Part shown: positions 2 to 20,013 of the stretch, one piece after another
How positions within the stretch are numbered: position 1 is the first letter of the stretch
Layout of the letters: every line of letters begins with the position of its first letter
Source: a virus
Strand: one strand, 5' to 3'
IMG/VR virus record: IMGVR_UViG_3300025012_000245
Length of the DNA: 29,168 nucleotides
Translations under genes and position numbers: made by a program
Notes under the pieces: generated by a model
Seen by the model: only the letters and a program-made list of their open reading frames with translations
Told to the model about the DNA's origin: nothing
Database searches by the model: none

Positions 2-1015
2 TACACTCAAATTATTCTTCAAGATTTAAGGGGTGGTCTTAGTGAAAAAACTATTAATAGTGCTTTAGGATATGAATTTATCTACATACACAAATTAGAA
101 AAAGGTGAAGTTGCTGAACCAAGACATTTAAAACTACTTAAAGGAAAAGAATTTGGTATTTATAAAAAGGTTGATGGATATCGAGCAGAAATTGAAGTTG
201 GAAATGGTAAAGTAAAAATTATGTCTTCTGGTGGAGAGTTATTTAAAGAATTAGTAGACATAGAAACTGTTTTGTTGAGTTCAAATTTGCCTCATGGAGT
301 ATTTGCTTGCGAGTTGCTTGCGATTGATTCTGAGGGTACTATGACAAGAATGGAGGTGTTTAATAAGACTGGTTCACTATTAAGAAGAGATGGTATTAAA
401 CAAGGAATTGAGGTTAACGTATTTAATTTCATTCCAGATAATGGTTTTTATGAAGGAAAACACTCTACAACTTGCAGAGAAAGAAAAGCATTGGTAAAAG
501 AATTAGTTGATAAGATTAATTCTCCTTTAATTAAAAATGTTGATCCATTTTATATTGGTAGAGATTTAACTCAAATTGATTATTGGTTTGAAAAAATGAT
601 TGAGAATGGTGATGAGGGGTGTATGGTTCTTCCAATGGATCAAAAATATGTTGGGAAGAAGTCCTATCAACAAATGCTAAAAATTAAAACTGAAAATGAG
701 GCAGATTTACGCATAGTTGGTTTTGAGCGCGGAGAGAAAGGTAAGGCATTTGAAAATACTTTAGGTAAAATGCTTGTTAATTACAAAGGAAATACAATTA
801 ATGTTATGGCAGGATATAAGATTAAATATGATTCTGCAAAGTATGATGATAGGTTAGTAAGAGATTATATTTGGAATCATCAAGACGAATTGTTGGGCAA
901 GATTGTGAAAGTGCGTTACATGGATGAAACTACAAATGATAGTGGTGGAATTGATTTAAGAATGTGTAGATTGATTGAATATAGGGATGATAAAACAGAA
1001 GAGTCTTATAATTAA
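2..1015 (+). CDS. ATP-dependent DNA ligase (5'-truncated by window edge)
   Basis: Open frame from pos 2 with no stop before 1015. Motif I KxDGxR ('KKVDGYR', ~nt 164-184), motif III 'FACELLAID', motif IV 'EGCMVLP', motif V 'LKIK', motif VI 'RLIEYRDDK' near the C-terminus. The start codon lies upstream of the window. Confidence 0.85.
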   Translation, partial: YTQIILQDLRGGLSEKTINSALGYEFIYIHKLEKGEVAEPRHLKLLKGKEFGIYKKVDGYRAEIEVGNGKVKIMSSGGELFKELVDIETVLLSSNLPHGVFACELLAIDSEGTMTRMEVFNKTGSLLRRDGIKQGIEVNVFNFIPDNGFYEGKHSTTCRERKALVKELVDKINSPLIKNVDPFYIGRDLTQIDYWFEKMIENGDEGCMVLPMDQKYVGKKSYQQMLKIKTENEADLRIVGFERGEKGKAFENTLGKMLVNYKGNTINVMAGYKIKYDSAKYDDRLVRDYIWNHQDELLGKIVKVRYMDETTNDSGGIDLRMCRLIEYRDDKTEESYN

Positions 1016-1034: not shown

Positions 1035-1490
1035 GTGATTAAAATAGTTGATGGAGATATATTACAAGCAAAAGAAGACATAAGATGCCATCAGACAAAT
1101 GCACTTGGTGTAATGGGTGGAGGAATAGCAAAACAAATTAAAGAAAAATATCCCGAAGTCTATAAAGCATATAAAGAATTATGTTTGTTACATAATTCAA
1201 AAGATTTACTGGGAGCAGTTCAATATGTTGAATGTCATGATGGACATATTATCGCTAATTTATTTGGACAAGAAGGGTTTGGTCGGAACAAACAATATAC
1301 TGATTATGATGCTCTAAGAAATGCATTAAAGATTGTTTACAAAAGAGTTAAACAATATCAAGAATCTATTGCAATCCCAGTAAATCTAGGTTGTGGATTA
1401 GCAGGAGGTAATTGGGATATAGTTTATAAGATTATTGAAGAAGTTTTTGATGATTATGATGTAACTTTGTATAGATGGGAGGTGAAATAA
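1035..1490 (+). CDS. macrodomain protein (ADP-ribose binding/hydrolase)
   Basis: GTG start 7 nt after 'AAAGGAG'. 'GDIL...HQTNALGVMGGGIAKQIKEKYP' and 'IAIPVNLGCGLAGGNWDIV' match the macrodomain Gly-rich phosphate-binding loops. Stop overlaps the TTG start of the PARP-like gene. Confidence 0.8.
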   Translation: MIKIVDGDILQAKEDIRCHQTNALGVMGGGIAKQIKEKYPEVYKAYKELCLLHNSKDLLGAVQYVECHDGHIIANLFGQEGFGRNKQYTDYDALRNALKIVYKRVKQYQESIAIPVNLGCGLAGGNWDIVYKIIEEVFDDYDVTLYRWEVK

Positions 1491-2713
1491 TTGGATACTA
1501 AATATAAATATCTTTATTTAGTAAAAGTTGAACCAGATGCAAATAATAATAAATTTTACAAACTAGTACAAACGGATGATAATAATTGGACTGCTGAATA
1601 TGGCCGCATTGGAGCAGGAGGTTTCAAACTGCATACTACAATATGAGTCACTGGGATAAAAAAGTAAGAGAAAAAGAGAAGAAAGGGTATTGTGATAATA
1701 CCAGATTAGTCGCAGAGGTTGTTGTTAAAGAAAAGAAGGACAAAGAATACTTAGACATTAAAAATCAAGTAATTGCATCTATCGTATCAAGACTTCAATC
1801 TATGGCGAGACAAGCCATTGCAGACAACTATACAATTTCTTCTAATAAAGTTACCCAAGTAATGATTGATGAAGCACAATTTACTTTAAATAATTTGATG
1901 AGTGCTGATACAATTGAATTATTCAATAAAGTTTTGATAGAATTGTTTAAAATTATCCCACGAAAAATGAAAAAGGTTAAAGATAATCTAGCAAAAAAAG
2001 TTGAGGATTTTGGAGAGATTATTCAGAAGGAACAGGATTTACTTGATGTAATGAGAGGTCAGGTGGTTACTGCATCTATAATTGAAAATGAAGAAATAGA
2101 GACAGATGAGCCTGTTAGAAATGAAACCATTCTTGATGTAATGGGTTTGCAATTTGAAGAAATTACAGACGAAGAGAAGAAAATGATTAAGAAAGAATTA
2201 GGAGAGATTAGTGATAGATTCTATCAAGCTTGGAAAGTTATTAATGTTAGAACTCAAGAAAAATTTGATAAATTTATTACTAATGAAAAAATCAAAGATA
2301 ATAGATTATTATTTCATGGATCTCGATCAGAAAACTTTTGGAGTATTATTAATTCAGGATTGGTGTTAAGACCAACTGGAGTGGTAATAAATGGAAAGAT
2401 GTTTGGGAATGGTTGCTATTTCTCGCCAACCGCCAGAAAGTCACTTGGATATACCTCGATAAGTGGGTCTCGATGGGTAAGTGGAAATGCAAATTCTGGG
2501 TTTATGGCATTATTTGATGTTGCTTATGGGAAAACTTATGATGTTCATTCATTTGATAGCAAATACTATAATTTTAATTATTAAGAATTACAAAAGGTTT
2601 GTAAAGGTGCGAATAGTCTTCACGCACATAAAGGCAAAATGTTGTACAACGACGAGATAATTGTTTATAAAGAAGATCAGATGACTATAAAATACTTAAT
2701 AGAACTTAAATAA
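1491..2713 (+). pseudogene. PARP-like ADP-ribosyltransferase (WGR + helical + ART domains), disrupted by a -1 frame break near 1641-1646 and an in-frame TAA at 2582-2584
   Basis: Frame 0 (1491-1646) encodes 'KFYKLVQTDDNNWTAEYGRIGAGGFKLHTTI*', a WGR motif. Frame 2 (1643-2584) continues the WGR end ('EKEKKGY') and helical domain, then 'LLFHGSRSENFWSIINSGLVLRP...GKMFGNGCYFSP' (PARP H-G-S and Y signature). After the TAA the same frame continues 'GANSLHAHKGKMLYNDEIIVYKEDQMTIKYLIELK*' (catalytic Glu 'YNDEIIVY') to the stop at 2711-2713. Confidence 0.8.
1643..2584 (+). CDS. PARP-like protein, largest intact reading frame (helical domain plus first two-thirds of ART domain; lacks catalytic Glu)
   Basis: ORF as it stands. 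ATG overlaps the upstream TGA (ATGA). Contains the H-G-S/Y-F PARP motifs but terminates before the conserved 'YNEYIVY'-type glutamate. Confidence 0.55.
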   Translation: MSHWDKKVREKEKKGYCDNTRLVAEVVVKEKKDKEYLDIKNQVIASIVSRLQSMARQAIADNYTISSNKVTQVMIDEAQFTLNNLMSADTIELFNKVLIELFKIIPRKMKKVKDNLAKKVEDFGEIIQKEQDLLDVMRGQVVTASIIENEEIETDEPVRNETILDVMGLQFEEITDEEKKMIKKELGEISDRFYQAWKVINVRTQEKFDKFITNEKIKDNRLLFHGSRSENFWSIINSGLVLRPTGVVINGKMFGNGCYFSPTARKSLGYTSISGSRWVSGNANSGFMALFDVAYGKTYDVHSFDSKYYNFNY

Positions 2714-3173: not shown

Positions 3174-3419
3174 ATGAACTGTACATGTGGTTGCAAACTT
3201 CAATTCACAGATAATAGTCTTAAAACTGAAAATGGGAAGACAGGAGAGGTTAGAGCAGTATATTATTGTGACTCATGTAATATTGCATATGATGGTTACG
3301 AATTAGATTGTGAAGGTAAGTATGTTAAATTGCCAAAGAGATATCTAAAATGGTTTGATAGAAACTATATGAATGGAATTTTGAATAAATATTGTAGAAA
3401 CAAGAGGGTTAATTTATGA
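3174..3419 (+). CDS. small Cys-rich (zinc-ribbon-like) protein
   Basis: RBS 'AAAGGAAA', 'CTCGC...CDSC' Cys pairs. Stop overlaps the next start (ATGA). Confidence 0.6.
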   Translation: MNCTCGCKLQFTDNSLKTENGKTGEVRAVYYCDSCNIAYDGYELDCEGKYVKLPKRYLKWFDRNYMNGILNKYCRNKRVNL

Positions 3420-3886
3420 TATTCAAAGAAGAAAAATGCGACTTGTTTAATTTAGATAATAAATATGCTTTAGCACATTGCATCTCAAATGATTGTGCTA
3501 TGGGAACTACAAAAGACGGAAGAATATTACCATGTGTTGCAACAGAATTTATTAAAAGATTTCCAAAAATGAAAATAATTATTAAAATAAGAAAAGACCC
3601 TAATGGGATTGGTACTTGTTGTTTATATGCAGAGTGCAAAGATGACAAATGGATTAGAATTTTTAATCTTATTACTAAAGAAAAATATTGGCTTAAACCA
3701 ACCTATGATACATTAAAAAGTAGTTTATTAGATTTAAAGAAGCAATGTGAGCATTTAGATATTAAATTTATTGCAATACCTAAGATTGGATCTGGACTTG
3801 ATAGACTTTCTTGGAGTAAAGTTAGAGAAATTATTAAAGAAGTATTTAAAGACACTGATATTGAAATTTTAGTGTGTTATTTATAA
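3416..3886 (+). CDS. TARG1/OARD1-like (DarG-like) macrodomain ADP-ribosyl hydrolase
   Basis: 'CDLFNLDNKYALAHCISNDCAMG', 'LITKEKYWLKPTYDTLKSSL' and 'IAIPKIGSGLDRLSWSKVREIIKEVFKDTDIEILVCYL' closely parallel the TARG1 motifs 'GDLF..SLAHCISEDCRMG', 'KPTYENL' and 'PRIGCGLDRLQWENV..IEEVF..TDIKITVY'. Catalytic Lys (KPTY) and Asp (GLDRL) positions are conserved. Confidence 0.8.
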   Translation: MIFKEEKCDLFNLDNKYALAHCISNDCAMGTTKDGRILPCVATEFIKRFPKMKIIIKIRKDPNGIGTCCLYAECKDDKWIRIFNLITKEKYWLKPTYDTLKSSLLDLKKQCEHLDIKFIAIPKIGSGLDRLSWSKVREIIKEVFKDTDIEILVCYL

Positions 3887-4702: not shown

Positions 4703-5649
4703 ATGAAAGTAAAATTGTTTAGTCATCTCGATTTAGACGGAATTTCTTGTGGAATTGTAGGTAAATTAGCATTCCCAAATATTGATATTGAATATTGTGA
4801 TTATGATGATATAAATGGTAAAATCATTGATTACATATGTAGCGAGAAATATAGAGACTATGATACAACATTTATTACAGATATTTCAGTAAATACAGAT
4901 GTAGCAAAACTAATCGACAACGCACACACACTCAATCAAACGAATTTGTATTACTAGATCATCATAAAACAGCGTTGTGGTTAAATGATTATAAATGGGC
5001 ATTGGTAGCAGAATATCTAGATGAAGAAAATAATACTAAGCATTGTGGGACAGTAATGTTTTACGAAAATTTGATTAATTTTTATATTCCTAAACCACAT
5101 ACTAGAAATGTATTCTTAGATAATTTTTCTGCTTTAGATTTTGTAGAAATTGTTAGGCAATATGACACCTATGAATGGAAATCAAAATACAATAATGTTT
5201 TACCTAAACAAATAAATGATTTAATGTATATATTAGGGCGAGATACTTTTATTGAAACTGTTTTGGATAAATTAAGCATATTACGAGACTATGAATTAAC
5301 TGAACAAGACTTAAAATTATTAAAACGCAATCAGGAAACAATTGACCATTACATAGAATCAAAAAACAAATCAATTATTGTTAAGGAAATTCAAGGTTAT
5401 CAGGCAGGAGTAGTATTTGCGGAAAAATATGTTTCAGAATTGGGAAATAAGCTATCTGAATTACATCCCGAATTAGATTTTATTGCTATGATAAATCCAT
5501 CACATTCGGTCAGTTATAGGACTGTAAAGAAAGATGTAGATTTGAGTGTTATAGCGTCAATGTTCTGTGGAGGTGGTCATAGGCAAGCTTCAGGAAGTCC
5601 TATTGATGAAGATATGAAAAATAGGATTATTAATTTGGTGTTTAGTTAA
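4703..5649 (+). pseudogene. DHH-DHHA1 phosphoesterase (NrnA/oligoribonuclease-pAp phosphatase-like) with frame break between motifs II and III
   Basis: Frame of 4703: 'SHLDLDGISCGIV' (DHH motif I) and 'FITDIS' (motif II), ending in TAG at 4955. Frame of 4975 runs upstream as '...QSNEFVLLDHHKTALW' (motif III DHH) and ends with the DHHA1 'FCGGGHRQASGSP' motif. The break lies at or near the (CA)4 tract at 4923-4930. Confidence 0.75.
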
Positions 5650-7093: not shown

Positions 7094-7480
7094 ATGAATC
7101 TTGAAGATATGGATTTATCAGTAAGGTCTTACAACTGCCTCAAAAGAGCAGGAATAGATACTCTTGAAGATATAATTCAAAAAACAGAAGATGACATGAT
7201 TAAAATTCGCAATCTTGGCAGAAAGAATTTTGAAGAAGTAAGATGGAAGTTGAAAGAGTTTGGACTGACATTTAAATATGAAATCTCTTACAAATTAACA
7301 GGAAGAGAAAAGTTTAACTTAGTATTTGCAAAAATGACAAATGAAAATTTAGCTGATTTAATTCTTGGAGGAAGTTGCCCTAGCCAATTTAATCTTTTTG
7401 ATAAAAAAGAAAATGGATGTCCAGTTTTCTTTTGCACAAGTTGTTGGGAGAAAGCATTAGAAATGGAATACGAACAATGA
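7094..7480 (+). CDS. RNA polymerase alpha-subunit C-terminal-domain (alpha-CTD)-like protein
   Basis: '[43 protein letters not shown]' matches the RpoA alpha-CTD helix-hairpin-helix ('LSVRS.NCLK...I..L......ELL...N.G.KSL.EI'). The C-terminal part is Cys-rich. Confidence 0.65.
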
Positions 7481-13827: not shown

Positions 13828-14073
13828 ATGAGCAAAATAGAATTTAAAAACGGAAGTACAATTGAGACGCTTGATTCAAAAGACAGTATTAGAAGCACAG
13901 GATATTTTTACCTTACAGATATAGACCAAAAAGAAAGATTAAATTATTTAATCGAAGCATTTAAAGATTTAGGCATTGCATTGAAATATACGGATGGAAC
14001 ATTCAGAGAGTTTGAATGTGTGATGTTGGATTTGCAAAAAGTATGGGGAGAATTAGAAAAACAAGAAAATTGA
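13828..14073 (+). CDS. hypothetical protein with N-terminal 'KIEFKNGSTIE' motif
   Basis: RBS 'GAGAAGGAGGAAT'. Paralogous to the ORF at 20444. Confidence 0.55.
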   Translation: MSKIEFKNGSTIETLDSKDSIRSTGYFYLTDIDQKERLNYLIEAFKDLGIALKYTDGTFREFECVMLDLQKVWGELEKQEN

Positions 14074-14161
14074 CCTCACGCATGCTCCATTATGCTTCCA
14101 AATGCTCGTGTTTTCAAAGTATAAAATCCAATCAAACTCAAATTTTAAAGGAGGATAATAT

Positions 14162-14383
14162 ATGCTTAGTAAAATTAAACTACATCCACTACAAGAAGAA
14201 CGATTAAATGTAGATGAATGGTACAGAAAAGAACGAGATAATCTAGAGAACCTTCGTAGACAGAAACTTAATGATATTCAAAATAAATGCACTCATAAAT
14301 GGGGAGACGATTTAGATGCTTGGGATTATACGTCACAACCATTTAGCGAAACTTTTTGTGCGATATGTCATAAGTTTAGATAA
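14162..14383 (+). CDS. hypothetical protein
   Basis: RBS 'AAAGGAGGATAATAT'. C-terminal 'CTHKW...CAICHKF'. Confidence 0.55.
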   Translation: MLSKIKLHPLQEERLNVDEWYRKERDNLENLRRQKLNDIQNKCTHKWGDDLDAWDYTSQPFSETFCAICHKFR

Positions 14384-17346: not shown

Positions 17347-17583
17347 ATGATACTAAAATCATTTGAAGAAATGCGCGATGATGAAACAATTTGTGATTAT
17401 TGTCATCAAACAGATTATGGAGAACATAAATCTTGTGTTACACCTTCTGGATACTCATCTTGTGAAGGAATGTGGTGTGAAGAAGCTTACGAGGCATATT
17501 TAGATGATAATAATGCATCTAAAATATTAATAAAATATCAAAATAATGTAAAATTATTAAATAAGGAGGAATTAATAAAATGA
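17347..17583 (+). CDS. Cys/His-rich small protein
   Basis: RBS 'AAGGGGAAGGAGAAAATT'. Confidence 0.55.
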   Translation: MILKSFEEMRDDETICDYCHQTDYGEHKSCVTPSGYSSCEGMWCEEAYEAYLDDNNASKILIKYQNNVKLLNKEELIK

Positions 17584-18188
17584 GTACAGCACTTAAATTT
17601 GAATTTGATTTTGAAGAAGTTTTTGAGGGAATTAAGTTAGGGGTAATTAAAGAAATGTCAGAAATGACTTTTGATGATATTACCACCAGTGCGATTAATC
17701 AGATTAAAAATGAAATGAAAAATAAAATATCTCTTACATATAAAGACGAATATGAAATCAGAGACGAAATTAAAGATGAAATCAAAGAAAAAGTATATCA
17801 AAAATTAATTGCAGAAATTAAAGATGAATATAAAAAGAAGTATGAAGAAGCATTTAGTAAAGATGTGACAAATGCACTTAACCTTGCCGAAGAAGATGTT
17901 ATAGAAGAGATAAAATCTGAAACGATTGATAGGTTATATAGTAATTTGTATTCAAATATTCAAAGTCAAGTAAAATCTAAGATTAATAATTCTATATCTG
18001 AAATTATTAATGCAATCACAGGGAATAGTATTAAAGTTGAAAATACTAAAAATACGATTTCTAAAGAAGAATATAGTGAACTTCTGCACAGAGATGAAAC
18101 ATTAACTGCATTGGAAAACGGTGGAGTAGATAACTGGGAATGGTATGGAGAATCTTTAAGTAATTATTTTAAAAACAAAAATAAATAA
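17580..18188 (+). CDS. charged coiled-coil protein
   Basis: ATGA overlap. K/E-rich heptad-like sequence. C-terminal 'LENGGVDNWEWYGESL'. Confidence 0.6.
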   Translation: MSTALKFEFDFEEVFEGIKLGVIKEMSEMTFDDITTSAINQIKNEMKNKISLTYKDEYEIRDEIKDEIKEKVYQKLIAEIKDEYKKKYEEAFSKDVTNALNLAEEDVIEEIKSETIDRLYSNLYSNIQSQVKSKINNSISEIINAITGNSIKVENTKNTISKEEYSELLHRDETLTALENGGVDNWEWYGESLSNYFKNKNK

Positions 18189-18977: not shown

Positions 18978-19112
18978 ATGTTTGTAATATTTATTCTTGC
19001 TATAGTAGTATTACTATTATTCTTAGCAATACCACTATACTCAAAAATAGGCCAGAAAATTGAACAAGTAGAAAATATAATTAAAGAGGAGATTAAAAAT
19101 AATGAGAAATAA
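18978..19112 (+). CDS. small single-TM membrane peptide (44 aa)
   Basis: 'AAAGGTGGTGATGATATAT-ATG'. Overlaps the start of the SPFH gene. Confidence 0.4.
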   Translation: MFVIFILAIVVLLLFLAIPLYSKIGQKIEQVENIIKEEIKNNEK

Positions 19113-20013
19113 TTTTGAAATCGGAGATATTTTAACAATGAATAAATTCACTAAAGGTTTAATTGCAGTTGGAGTATCAGCAGTTGTCTTACTTGCAGGT
19201 TTTGGAATGTCAACTACAAAGATTAATCCAGGACATGCAGGAATTGTATATAATGTATCTGGTGGTCTAGAAGATATTACATTGAGTCAAGGATGGCACA
19301 TAGTAGCACCTTGGAAAAGTATTAGAGAATATCCTATTAGTACAGAAACAGTATGGTTAACACAGGCTAAAACAGAGGGTTCACCCAATGATGATTCCTA
19401 TAATACTTCTACTATGGAAGGAAAACCTGTAAACGTAGACGCTTATTTTACATATCATGTGAATGTAGAAAAATTACCTGCAATATTTAATAGATTTAAA
19501 GGCGCAGATATCGAATCTATCCAATCAGGATATTTAAAGCAACAGGTGAAAACAGCTTCTCAATCAGTTACATCTAGTTATAGTGTTCTTGATTTGTACG
19601 GCAATAAGCGTTCAGAGATTCAAAATAAAATCCATGATATATTAATCAAAGAATTAACTCCATTTGGATTAGAAGTCGAAACATTTAGTTTTGGAGAAAT
19701 TCGTCCTGATGCAGATACTATGAAAGCAATTCAGGCAAAAGTTGATGCACAGCAAAAACTTCAACAAATGCAAACAGAATTAGAGCAATCAAAAGTTACA
19801 GCAGATAAAGCGAGAGTTGATGCGAAAGGGATAGCGGATGCAGCAGTAATTAGAGCAACAGGCGAAGCAGAAGCAAATCAAAAATTACAAGCATCGTTAA
19901 CTCCTGAATTGATTCAAAAATTATGGATTGATAAGTGGGATGGTCAACAATCTCAAGTTGTTGGTAGTGGAAGTCAAATGATTAATATTCCGGCTATTGG
20001 TGGGTCTAAGTAA
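19102..20013 (+). CDS. SPFH/band-7 (stomatin/prohibitin/HflK-C-like) membrane protein
   Basis: Strong RBS 'AGAGGAG'. N-terminal TM 'LIAVGVSAVVLLAGFG', then 'PGHAGIVYNVSGG...GWHIVAPW', typical of an SPFH domain, then a coiled-coil tail. Confidence 0.75.
   Translation: MRNNFEIGDILTMNKFTKGLIAVGVSAVVLLAGFGMSTTKINPGHAGIVYNVSGGLEDITLSQGWHIVAPWKSIREYPISTETVWLTQAKTEGSPNDDSYNTSTMEGKPVNVDAYFTYHVNVEKLPAIFNRFKGADIESIQSGYLKQQVKTASQSVTSSYSVLDLYGNKRSEIQNKIHDILIKELTPFGLEVETFSFGEIRPDADTMKAIQAKVDAQQKLQQMQTELEQSKVTADKARVDAKGIADAAVIRATGEAEANQKLQASLTPELIQKLWIDKWDGQQSQVVGSGSQMINIPAIGGSK

What the first reader, a model, noticed from the sequence alone, without database searches (positions are those of the whole stretch)
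1491..2713. PARP-like (WGR-HD-ART) gene split by a frameshift and an in-frame TAA
All three PARP1-3-type modules are present and colinear. The reading frame breaks at 'ACAATATGAGTCAC' (1638-1651) and a TAA at 2582-2584 removes the catalytic glutamate segment, which continues in frame ('LYNDEIIVYKED'). Restoring one A in 'ATA(A)TGAGT' gives a continuous 'GFKLHTTIMSHWDKKVREKEKKGY' WGR end. TAA ends most genes here, so genetic-code reassignment is excluded. In about 25 kb of coding sequence I found disruptions only here and in the DHH gene, while the 2.5-kb MVP gene is clean. This points to real decay or regulated expression rather than random sequencing error. A phage PARP is itself uncommon.
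Basis: partly seen in the sequence, partly recalled or inferred. Interest (0 to 1): 0.85.

Follow-up and report, generated by a model that had tools for sequence, protein, structure and literature searches.

The report
Recently broken phage PARP gene
A virus of groundwater bacteria carries a PARP-type ADP-ribosyltransferase gene that was recently knocked out by a lost T and a premature stop codon, while nearly all related viruses keep it intact, so it is an ordinary young pseudogene of a known gene family.

Summary
Window 1491-2713 encodes a WGR, helical and ART (PARP-type) protein interrupted twice. The repaired 407-aa translation hits Pfam PARP (5e-23), Pfam WGR (6e-7) and phage family PHROG 23333 over its full length (1e-58).

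Both lesions are real mutations. The identical broken gene appears in at least five other assemblies from several groundwater samples, and their flanking genes differ by SNP clusters.

Relatives read GGTTTTCAA and the window reads GGTTTCAA, so one T was lost from a T4 run at 1622-1624. The residues 'KLHTTI' are out-of-frame junk. The correct repair is GGFQTAYYNMSHW.

The TAA replaces a Glu codon (GAA or GAG in relatives) and cuts off catalytic Glu389.

Intact 397-411-aa orthologues are abundant: 116 of the 120 best protein clusters and 32 of 34 viral contigs. The closest is 92% identical. I found no slippery heptamer, no downstream RNA structure and no code reassignment.

The T deletion occurs in at least three recombinant backgrounds. 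The TAA occurs only together with it, so the frameshift probably came first. There is no excess of missense change, so the decay is recent.

Phage PARPs have been reported since 2005-2014. Interest is low.

The parts
1491..1646 (+). ORF1. It has a TTG start behind a GGAGGTG ribosome-binding site. There are 45 native WGR residues (M1-F45, including the YGR motif at 1599-1607), then 6 out-of-frame residues (KLHTTI) and a TGA stop.
1622..1624 (+). Lesion 1. The T3 run is what remains of an ancestral T4 run (GGTTTTCAA became GGTTTCAA). The 1-nt deletion shifts the frame by -1 after codon 45.
   Evidence: DNA alignments to the intact orthologues L005, L006 and L013
1625..2581 (+). True continuation of the PARP frame: QTAYYN, then M52. 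It covers the rest of the WGR domain (invariant Trp55 at 1652-1654), the helical domain (about residues 75-229) and the N-terminal part of the ART domain, with His276 (2315-2317) and Tyr310 (2417-2419). The callable ORF2 starts at ATG 1643, which overlaps the ORF1 stop (ATGA).
2582..2584 (+). Lesion 2. TAA nonsense codon at codon 365. Orthologues have Glu here (GAA in L005 and L044, GAG in L007 and L013), so it is a G-to-T substitution.
2585..2713 (+). Cut-off C-terminal 42 codons of the ART domain, including catalytic Glu389 (2654-2656) in LYNDEIIVY, which corresponds to PARP1 LLYNEYIVY. Ends at the original TAA stop (2711-2713).
1035..1490 (+). Intact Macro-domain gene immediately upstream, the presumed ADP-ribose hydrolase partner. 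A Macro gene lies directly upstream of the PARP gene in all 38 related loci examined.
221..1015 (+). 3' part of an ATP-dependent DNA ligase gene (441 aa in L001). The ligase-Macro-PARP order is conserved in the closer relatives.
3416..3886 (+). Second intact Macro-domain gene, downstream of the PARP gene.

Best explanation
This is a young pseudogene of a phage-encoded PARP, an ADP-ribosyltransferase of the PARP1-3 type with WGR, helical and ART domains.

In related phages the 397-411-aa gene is intact and always follows a Macro-domain gene. In the closer relatives a DNA ligase gene also lies just upstream. By analogy with PARP1-3, the intact protein probably senses DNA breaks through its WGR domain, ADP-ribosylates targets through a His-Tyr-Glu active site, and is reversed by the Macro hydrolase. 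That mechanism is inferred, not shown.

In this lineage one T was lost from a T4 run in codon 45/46. The ribosome therefore terminates after 51 residues. Later a Glu codon (GAA or GAG in the relatives) mutated to TAA at codon 365, removing the last 42 residues, which include the catalytic Glu. Neither possible product can be an active PARP: not the 51-aa WGR fragment, and not a 313-aa protein made by reinitiation at the overlapping ATGA. The gene is being lost. Two other related phage contigs show independent knock-outs.
For: Identity of the gene:
- Pfam PARP 5.2e-23 and WGR 5.7e-7.
- PHROG 23333 at 1.2e-58 over residues 5-407.
- PDB PARP1 catalytic domains at 4e-11; the tail aligns MLYNDEIIVY to LLYN-EYIVY. 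The profile search gives 1e-16.

Intact orthologues exist:
- P0001 is 92% identical and exactly 407 aa. Of the best 120 clusters, 116 are 395-425 aa.
- 32 of 34 IMG/VR loci have an uninterrupted ORF.
- 14 cultured-phage records hold a full-length homologue covering at least 80% of the query in a single aligned piece.

Nature of the lesions:
- T4 became T3.
- GAA or GAG became TAA at a Glu/Asp-conserved column.

The lesions are real, not artefacts:
- The identical 51-aa and 313-aa ORFs occur in L001-L004 from different samples and assemblers. The PARP region is 100% identical while the flanks differ by 40, 5 and 2 SNPs.
- L043, from yet another run, carries both lesions plus four further differences.

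Order of events:
- The 51-aa T-deletion ORF is on 16 contigs; the 313-aa ORF is on 6.
- The T deletion without the TAA is found in L044 and L007, on different downstream backgrounds. The TAA is never seen without the T deletion.

No sign of recoding:
- No X XXY YYZ heptamer.
- Downstream fold z = +0.61.
- TAA terminates 39 of 53 ORFs.
- No tRNA gene in the window.

Independent knock-outs elsewhere:
- TGG to TGA at the invariant WGR Trp in L008/L014, and at the Trp of LLWHGS in L033.

A second accessory gene (DHH) in the same genome is frameshifted by 2 extra nt next to a (CA)4 run.
Against: - There is no excess of missense change. The repaired protein deviates at only 1 of the columns that are at least 95% conserved, ranking 62nd of 117. 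Relaxed selection is therefore not visible. This fits very recent inactivation, but it does not by itself exclude continued function.
- The T-deletion allele persists in at least three recombinant backgrounds with otherwise open downstream ORFs. That could mean it is tolerated or even favoured.
- The short mosaic contigs (L007, L043, L044) could be assembly chimeras, which would weaken the inferred order of events.
- Read-level allele frequencies could not be examined.
- All carriers that can be traced come from one groundwater project (PRJNA268031 / ANAN16). The origin of L002, L007 and the JGI contig L044 is not established.
Confidence: 0.85

Rival explanations
1. Sequencing or assembly error: the phage really has an intact PARP gene, and the missing T and the TAA are artefacts.
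For: Both changes are single-nucleotide events, and one lies in a short homopolymer.
Against: - The same two lesions occur in L001-L004 and L043, from different biosamples and runs and from contigs with different assembler naming styles. The flanking haplotypes differ by SNPs.
- The T-deletion ORF is recorded on 16 contigs in ENA and JGI.
- A T3/T4 run is, to my knowledge, not an error-prone context for Illumina-type data.
Confidence: 0.03
2. Programmed recoding: a -1 ribosomal frameshift, with P-site tRNA-Phe slipping from UUC to UUU at GGU UUC AAA, plus TAA read-through. Together these would yield a low, regulated amount of full-length PARP.
For: A -1 slip of tRNA-Phe from UUC (1623-1625) onto UUU (1622-1624) would restore exactly the ancestral reading GGF-QTAYYN. 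This follows directly from the sequence.
Against: - There is no canonical X XXY YYZ heptamer, and the neighbouring tRNA cannot re-pair.
- There is no stable downstream structure (-10.2 kcal/mol, z = +0.61).
- The break is absent from 32 of 34 related viral loci and from 116 of 120 protein clusters, so it is derived, not a conserved feature.
- A second, unrelated barrier (TAA, to my knowledge the strongest bacterial terminator) would also have to be bypassed.
- No suppressor tRNA was seen in the window.
Confidence: 0.04
3. Adaptive loss or neofunctionalisation. Either knocking out PARP is favoured in this host, for example to avoid NAD+ drain or detection by a defence system, or the fragments have a new role. 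The fragments are the WGR stub and a Glu-less protein that would retain only His276 and Tyr310 of the catalytic triad and could be made by reinitiation at ATGA. A possible new role is as a decoy or dominant-negative.
For: - The T-deletion allele is found in at least three recombinant backgrounds.
- Independent nonsense alleles occur in two other phage contigs.
- The ORF1 stop and the ORF2 start overlap as ATGA, which would permit translational coupling.
- No missense decay is seen.
Against: - A few null alleles among about 45 loci is what mutation-selection balance of a dispensable accessory gene would give.
- The ATGA overlap is a by-product of a conserved Met52 codon.
- The truncated ART lacks core strands and the catalytic Glu.
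- There is no evidence for expression.
Confidence: 0.08

Closest known systems
Phage PARPs: PHROG 23333; Cellulophaga phage phi4:1 / phi17:2 'poly(ADP-ribose) polymerase'; Xanthomonas jumbo phages XacN1 and Xoo-sp13
   Same: Same WGR...ART architecture and length. tblastn matches cover residues 9-407 or 6-407 in a single piece. The PHROG profile matches full length at 1.2e-58. Phage PARPs were reported by Otto et al. 2005 (PMC1266365) and Perina et al. 2014 (PMC4245714).
   Different: Identity to the cultured-phage proteins is only 25-31%; the one closer hit, an uncultured phage, is 36.7%. The window copy is broken by a frameshift and a nonsense codon, whereas those copies are intact.
Uncultured-phage orthologues (P0001, 407 aa, 92% identical; P0002-P0120; IMG/VR contigs of 120-180 kb)
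   Same: They are true orthologues. They share the gene order (ligase, Macro, PARP, then a 99-aa ORF) and the His276, Tyr310 and Glu389 positions.
   Different: They have uninterrupted ORFs. The window lineage has T3 in place of T4 and TAA in place of the Glu365 codon.
Bacterial PARPs (Herpetosiphon aurantiacus PARP; Clostridioides difficile CD160 PARP; 'Clade 1' WGR-PARP_cat proteins)
   Same: WGR and catalytic domains separated by a helical region that Pfam PARP_reg often fails to detect. The first position of the 'WGR' motif is Tyr (YGR), as described for bacterial PARPs (PMC5966428). The H-Y-E triad is conserved (PMC4245714).
   Different: The window gene is phage-borne, paired with a Macro gene, and inactivated. 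No biochemical data exist for this clade.
Eukaryotic PARP2/PARP3 (minimal WGR-HD-ART DNA-break sensors) and PARP1
   Same: These are the best solved-structure matches: PARP1 and PARP2 at E about 1e-16 with the orthologue profile. The alignment covers PARP1 720-951, that is part of the HD plus the ART domain. The catalytic motif aligns.
   Different: There are no zinc-finger or BRCT domains and no N-terminal tail. The HD is divergent (0 of 32 orthologues hit PARP_reg). DNA-dependent activation is inferred only.

Membership tests
PARP1-3-type PARP (WGR-HD-ART) | WGR domain | tested here: met
   Pfam WGR scores 5.7e-7 and 30 bits (cut-off 22) on the conceptually joined translation. All 32 orthologues tested hit it. 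As encoded, the domain is split after residue 45.
PARP1-3-type PARP (WGR-HD-ART) | Helical regulatory domain (PARP_reg / HD) | tested here: inconclusive
   Pfam PARP_reg is hit by 0 of 32 orthologues. The orthologue profile aligns positions 117-347 to PARP1 720-951. The AlphaFold model shows helices at 93-195 but has low confidence (mean pLDDT 54.9).
PARP1-3-type PARP (WGR-HD-ART) | ART catalytic domain with the His-Tyr-Glu triad | tested here: met
   Pfam PARP scores 5.2e-23. H276, Y310 and E389 are invariant across orthologues. E389 aligns to the PARP1 LLYNEYIVY Glu.
PARP1-3-type PARP (WGR-HD-ART) | A single uninterrupted coding sequence that places WGR, His, Tyr and Glu in one polypeptide | tested here: not met
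   There is a 1-nt deletion at 1622-1624 and a TAA at 2582-2584. It is a pseudogene of the family, not a functional member.
PARP1-3-type PARP (WGR-HD-ART) | DNA-break-stimulated (poly)ADP-ribosylation activity | not testable with these tools
   This needs biochemistry on an intact orthologue such as P0001.
Phage PARP family PHROG 23333 | Full-length profile match | tested here: met
   1.2e-58; residues 5-407 match profile positions 3-383 of 383.
Programmed -1 ribosomal frameshift | Slippery heptamer X XXY YYZ at the shift site | tested here: not met
   The site reads GGA GGT TTC AAA CTG. Only tRNA-Phe could re-pair.
Programmed -1 ribosomal frameshift | Downstream stimulatory RNA structure | tested here: not met
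   For 1626-1725 the MFE is -10.2 kcal/mol and z = +0.61; 140 of 200 shuffles fold at least as well.
Programmed -1 ribosomal frameshift | Conservation of the split among diverged orthologues | tested here: not met
   32 of 34 IMG/VR loci and 116 of 120 clusters are continuous. The T-deletion carriers are 100% identical around the site, which indicates identity by descent.
Stop-codon reassignment (TAA as a sense codon) | The codon is not used as a terminator, and in-frame occurrences are widespread | tested here: not met
   TAA ends 39 of 53 ORFs of 60 aa or more. No tRNA gene was found in the window.
Pseudogene | Intact close orthologues, inactivating lesions at conserved positions, and lesions reproducible in independent data | tested here: met
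Pseudogene | Signature of relaxed constraint (excess change at conserved sites) | tested here: not met
   One deviation at the columns that are at least 95% conserved, ranking 62nd of 117. This implies very recent inactivation.

The most novel reading that the evidence does not exclude
The knock-outs may not be neutral decay. The T-deletion allele has spread by recombination into at least three phage backgrounds. Independent Trp-to-stop alleles occur in two other related phages. This could mean that loss of the phage PARP is repeatedly selected in nature, for instance because PARP activity or NAD+ consumption triggers or aggravates a host defence. Alternatively, the WGR stub and the Glu-less fragment might have acquired a decoy or regulatory role.
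Probability: 0.1. Interest if true: 0.5.

Novelty: new member of a known kind. Interest (0 to 1): 0.22.

Why it matters
It matters little in itself. A broken accessory gene in an uncultured phage is ordinary.

Three points have modest value:
- It shows that this large phage PARP clade, which to my knowledge is experimentally uncharacterised, is dispensable in at least some settings. The clade is always paired with a Macro 'eraser' gene and often sits next to a DNA ligase gene.
- It identifies intact, very close orthologues (for example P0001) as the proteins to express if one wants to learn what a phage PARP does.
- It gives a clean natural example of stepwise gene decay, frameshift first and nonsense second, embedded in a highly mosaic, recombining phage population.

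Tried and rejected
- Megablast of 25 kb of the window against 50,697 phage records gave no match. Distant blastn gave only short hits in neighbouring genes. No cultured close relative exists.
- AlphaFold2 on a 32-sequence orthologue alignment gave a poor model (mean pLDDT 54.9, ART domain below 50). I therefore ran no fold search and draw no structural claim beyond predicted helices.
- Pfam PARP_reg was looked for in 32 orthologues and not found.
- Exact-pattern scans allowing T3 or T4 at the frameshift site found nothing in IMG/VR or the JGI metagenome contigs. A scan allowing any base at the first position of the stop codon found nothing in IMG/VR. The direct un-mutated ancestor allele was therefore not recovered.
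- The test for relaxed constraint showed no signal.
- The tRNA scan for a suppressor found none in the window.
- The promoter and terminator scan showed nothing above the AT-rich background.
- I considered TGA-to-Trp recoding for the relative L008. TGA also ends one other predicted ORF in that 9-kb locus and only 9 kb was examined, so this is left open and noted in passing.

Full report
**What is in the sequence**

Window 1491-2713 contains three collinear pieces on the + strand.
- ORF 1491-1646 is 51 aa. It starts at TTG directly after the stop of the upstream Macro gene and 7-8 nt behind GGAGGTG.
- ORF 1643-2584 is 313 aa and lies in the -1 frame. Its ATG overlaps the TGA of the first ORF (ATGA).
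- After an in-frame TAA at 2582-2584 come 42 further sense codons, ending at the TAA at 2711-2713.

The joined translation hits Pfam PARP (5.2e-23, residues 230-407) and Pfam WGR (5.7e-7, residues 8-70). It hits the phage family PHROG 23333 over its full length at 1.2e-58. It also hits the catalytic domains of PARP1 and PARP2 in the PDB, at 4e-11 with the single sequence and about 1e-16 with an orthologue profile that aligns to PARP1 residues 720-951.

The cut-off tail MLYNDEIIVY aligns to PARP1 LLYN-EYIVY. Catalytic Glu389 (2654-2656) therefore lies downstream of the premature stop. His276 (2315-2317) and Tyr310 (2417-2419) lie upstream of it.

**Where the frameshift really is**

Alignment with orthologues shows otherwise.
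- At the protein level they read ...YGRIGAGGFQTAYYNMSQWDKK..., whereas the window's frame-0 reading is GGFKLHTTI*.
- At the DNA level the intact relatives L005, L006, L010, L013 and L038 have GG(T/G)GGTTTTCAAAC, and the window has GGAGGTTTCAAAC.

One T of a T4 run is therefore missing (the window T run is 1622-1624). The six residues KLHTTI are out-of-frame. The correct repair is GGF-QTAYYN-MSHWDKK. The repaired length of 407 aa equals that of the closest orthologue, P0001.

**The nonsense codon**

The TAA occupies codon 365. All but two of the orthologues aligned have Glu there, in NFNYEELQK (two have Asp). The codon is GAA in L005 and L044 and GAG in L007 and L013. This is a single G-to-T change.

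**Real mutations or artefacts?**

The exact 313-aa ORF, preceded by the same 51-aa ORF, is found on six contigs in public assemblies. Four were fetched: L001 and L004 from ANAN16 scaffolds of two different biosamples, L003 from SRR1658465, and L002 from another assembly.

These are 99.68-100% identical to the window. All their differences lie outside the PARP gene: 40 SNPs clustered in the ligase gene (L001), 5 in the Macro gene (L004) and 2 in the DHH gene (L003). Distinct haplotypes therefore share the identical broken gene.

L043, from a further run (SRR1658469), has both lesions plus three SNPs and an in-frame 3-nt deletion within 1651-1744. The 51-aa frameshift ORF is recorded on 16 contigs, 12 in ENA and 4 in JGI. 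An assembly or sequencing artefact is effectively excluded. Read-level frequencies could not be checked.

**Is the split a conserved, programmed feature?**

It is not.
- Of the 120 best protein clusters (60-92% identity), 116 are 395-425 aa.
- Of 34 related loci in IMG/VR, on contigs up to 180 kb, 32 have an uninterrupted ORF.
- In 14 of the 16 matching cultured-phage records the match is a single piece covering at least 80% of the query.
- The shift site GGA GGT TTC AAA is not an X XXY YYZ heptamer. Only tRNA-Phe could slip, from UUC to UUU.
- The 100 nt downstream fold no better than shuffles (z = +0.61).
- TAA is the main terminator in the window, ending 39 of 53 ORFs.
- No tRNA gene is present in the window.

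Full-length protein would need two independent recoding events, and there is no supporting signal for either.

**History of the lesions**

The phage population is strongly mosaic.
- L007 is 100% identical to the window from 56 to 1738, which includes the T deletion. It is then 11-36 differences per 100 nt away and matches L013. Its downstream ORF (P0019, 355 aa) has GAG in place of TAA.
- L044, from a JGI sample, is identical to the window from 1491 to 2358. It then matches L005, again with the T deletion but with GAA.

So the T deletion occurs in at least three backgrounds, and the TAA occurs only together with it. The simplest reading is that the frameshift came first and the nonsense mutation arose later on the already dead gene.

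One caveat applies. The three mosaic contigs are short (1.7-3.7 kb) and could be assembly chimeras of co-occurring strains.

The repaired protein deviates at only one column that is at least 95% conserved (F33W), ranking 62nd of 117. Missense decay has not yet accumulated, so the inactivation is recent.

**Independent knock-outs in relatives**

L008, the same contig as L014 (136.7 kb), has TGG to TGA at the invariant WGR Trp55. L033 has TGG to TGA at the Trp of LLWHGS; its near-identical sister L029 has TGG. The gene is thus sporadically lost in this phage group while being maintained in most members.

**Context and likely function of the intact gene**

The window is a one-strand array of small early or accessory genes at 29% GC. 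It includes the following:
- an ATP-dependent DNA ligase
- two Macro-domain proteins
- a T7 gp5.9-like domain
- a Sak4-like annealing protein
- an RNA polymerase alpha-CTD-like protein
- an SPFH protein
- an MVP-like protein

A Macro gene lies directly upstream of the PARP gene in all 38 related loci examined. The ligase is upstream in the closer ones.

From established knowledge of PARP1-3, WGR binding to DNA breaks relieves HD autoinhibition, the H-Y-E triad carries out catalysis, and macrodomains act as erasers. On that basis the intact module is most plausibly a DNA-break-responsive ADP-ribosylation writer and eraser pair linked to nick sealing. This is inference only. To my knowledge, no phage PARP of this clade has been characterised.

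In the window lineage the writer is dead. The possible products are a 51-aa WGR stub and, if reinitiation occurs at ATGA, a 313-aa protein that lacks the first three WGR strands and the C-terminal strands with the catalytic Glu.

**Comparison with what is known, and novelty**

- Phage PARPs have been reported since 2005 (phage Aeh1; PMC1266365) and 2014 (Cellulophaga phage phi4:1; PMC4245714). They are annotated in GenBank phage records.
- Bacterial WGR-PARP proteins with a helical linker that Pfam PARP_reg misses, and with Tyr in place of Trp in the 'WGR' motif, are described in PMC5966428. The present family behaves the same way: 0 of 32 orthologues hit PARP_reg, and the motif is YGR.

The finding is a new, inactivated member of a known kind.

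**Verdict**

It is real decay, not regulated expression, and the frameshift was mislocated. Interest is low, at about 0.2.

The most novel reading not excluded is selected loss or a new role for the fragments, with a probability of about 0.1.

Noticed in passing
window 4703-5649: The DHH/DHHA1 phosphoesterase gene is split between ORF 4703-4957 and frame-B ORF 4945/4975-5649. The relative L038 has one continuous ORF (…DEVFTQEHEFVLLDHHK…). The window has 2 extra nt next to a (CA)4 run (GCACACACACTC, about 4922-4933). Removing one CA gives DNAHTQSNEFVLLDHH. The same split is present in L001-L003. This is a second slippage-type pseudogene in the same genome.
   Followed up: partly
window 1035-1490 and 3416-3886; loci L005-L042: A Macro-domain gene lies immediately upstream of the PARP gene in all 38 related loci examined. 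The window has a second Macro paralogue downstream. Both Macro genes remain intact although the PARP 'writer' is dead.
   Followed up: partly
window 23101-25581 and 19102-20013: An 826-aa protein has an MVP shoulder domain (1.8e-27) and weaker Vault-repeat hits, so it resembles the major vault protein. A separate 303-aa SPFH/Band-7 protein is also present. It is curious that a phage region carries both an MVP-like and a PARP-like gene, since eukaryotic vaults contain PARP4. However, the PARP here is closer to PARP1 and PARP2 than to PARP4 in the PDB searches.
   Followed up: no
L008 3812-5026 (= L014) and L033 codon 265: Independent in-frame TGA codons sit at invariant Trp positions of the PARP gene in two other phage contigs (TGG to TGA). 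In L008, TGA also ends one other predicted ORF, so this is probably nonsense and not TGA=Trp recoding. Only 9 kb of a 137-kb contig was examined.
   Followed up: partly
L005 8585-9541, L006 273-1229: A GIY-YIG homing-endonuclease-like gene (318 aa) is inserted between the ligase and Macro genes in the closest intact relatives. It is absent from the window. L005 also has a NUMOD1 endonuclease-like gene upstream. This fits the sharp recombination breakpoints seen throughout this region.
   Followed up: no
L008 2465-3330: Downstream of the 441-aa ligase in L008 lies a 258-aa ORF ending in TGA. It is followed, in the +1 frame, by a stretch (…GEIDLRIARLVCYRDDKIIESYN*) that resembles the ligase C-terminus. 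This may be a duplicated or frameshifted ligase 3' fragment left by a mobile-element insertion.
   Followed up: no
window 7094-7480 and 17580-18188: A phage-encoded protein has an RNA polymerase alpha-subunit C-terminal domain (1.4e-23). A 202-aa protein has a T7 gp5.9 RecBCD-inhibitor-like domain (2.3e-16).
   Followed up: no
window 13828-14383: Three overlapping plus-strand ORFs lie in different frames (13828-14073, 14016-14207, 14162-14383). They could be another frameshifted gene or simply overlapping small genes.
   Followed up: no
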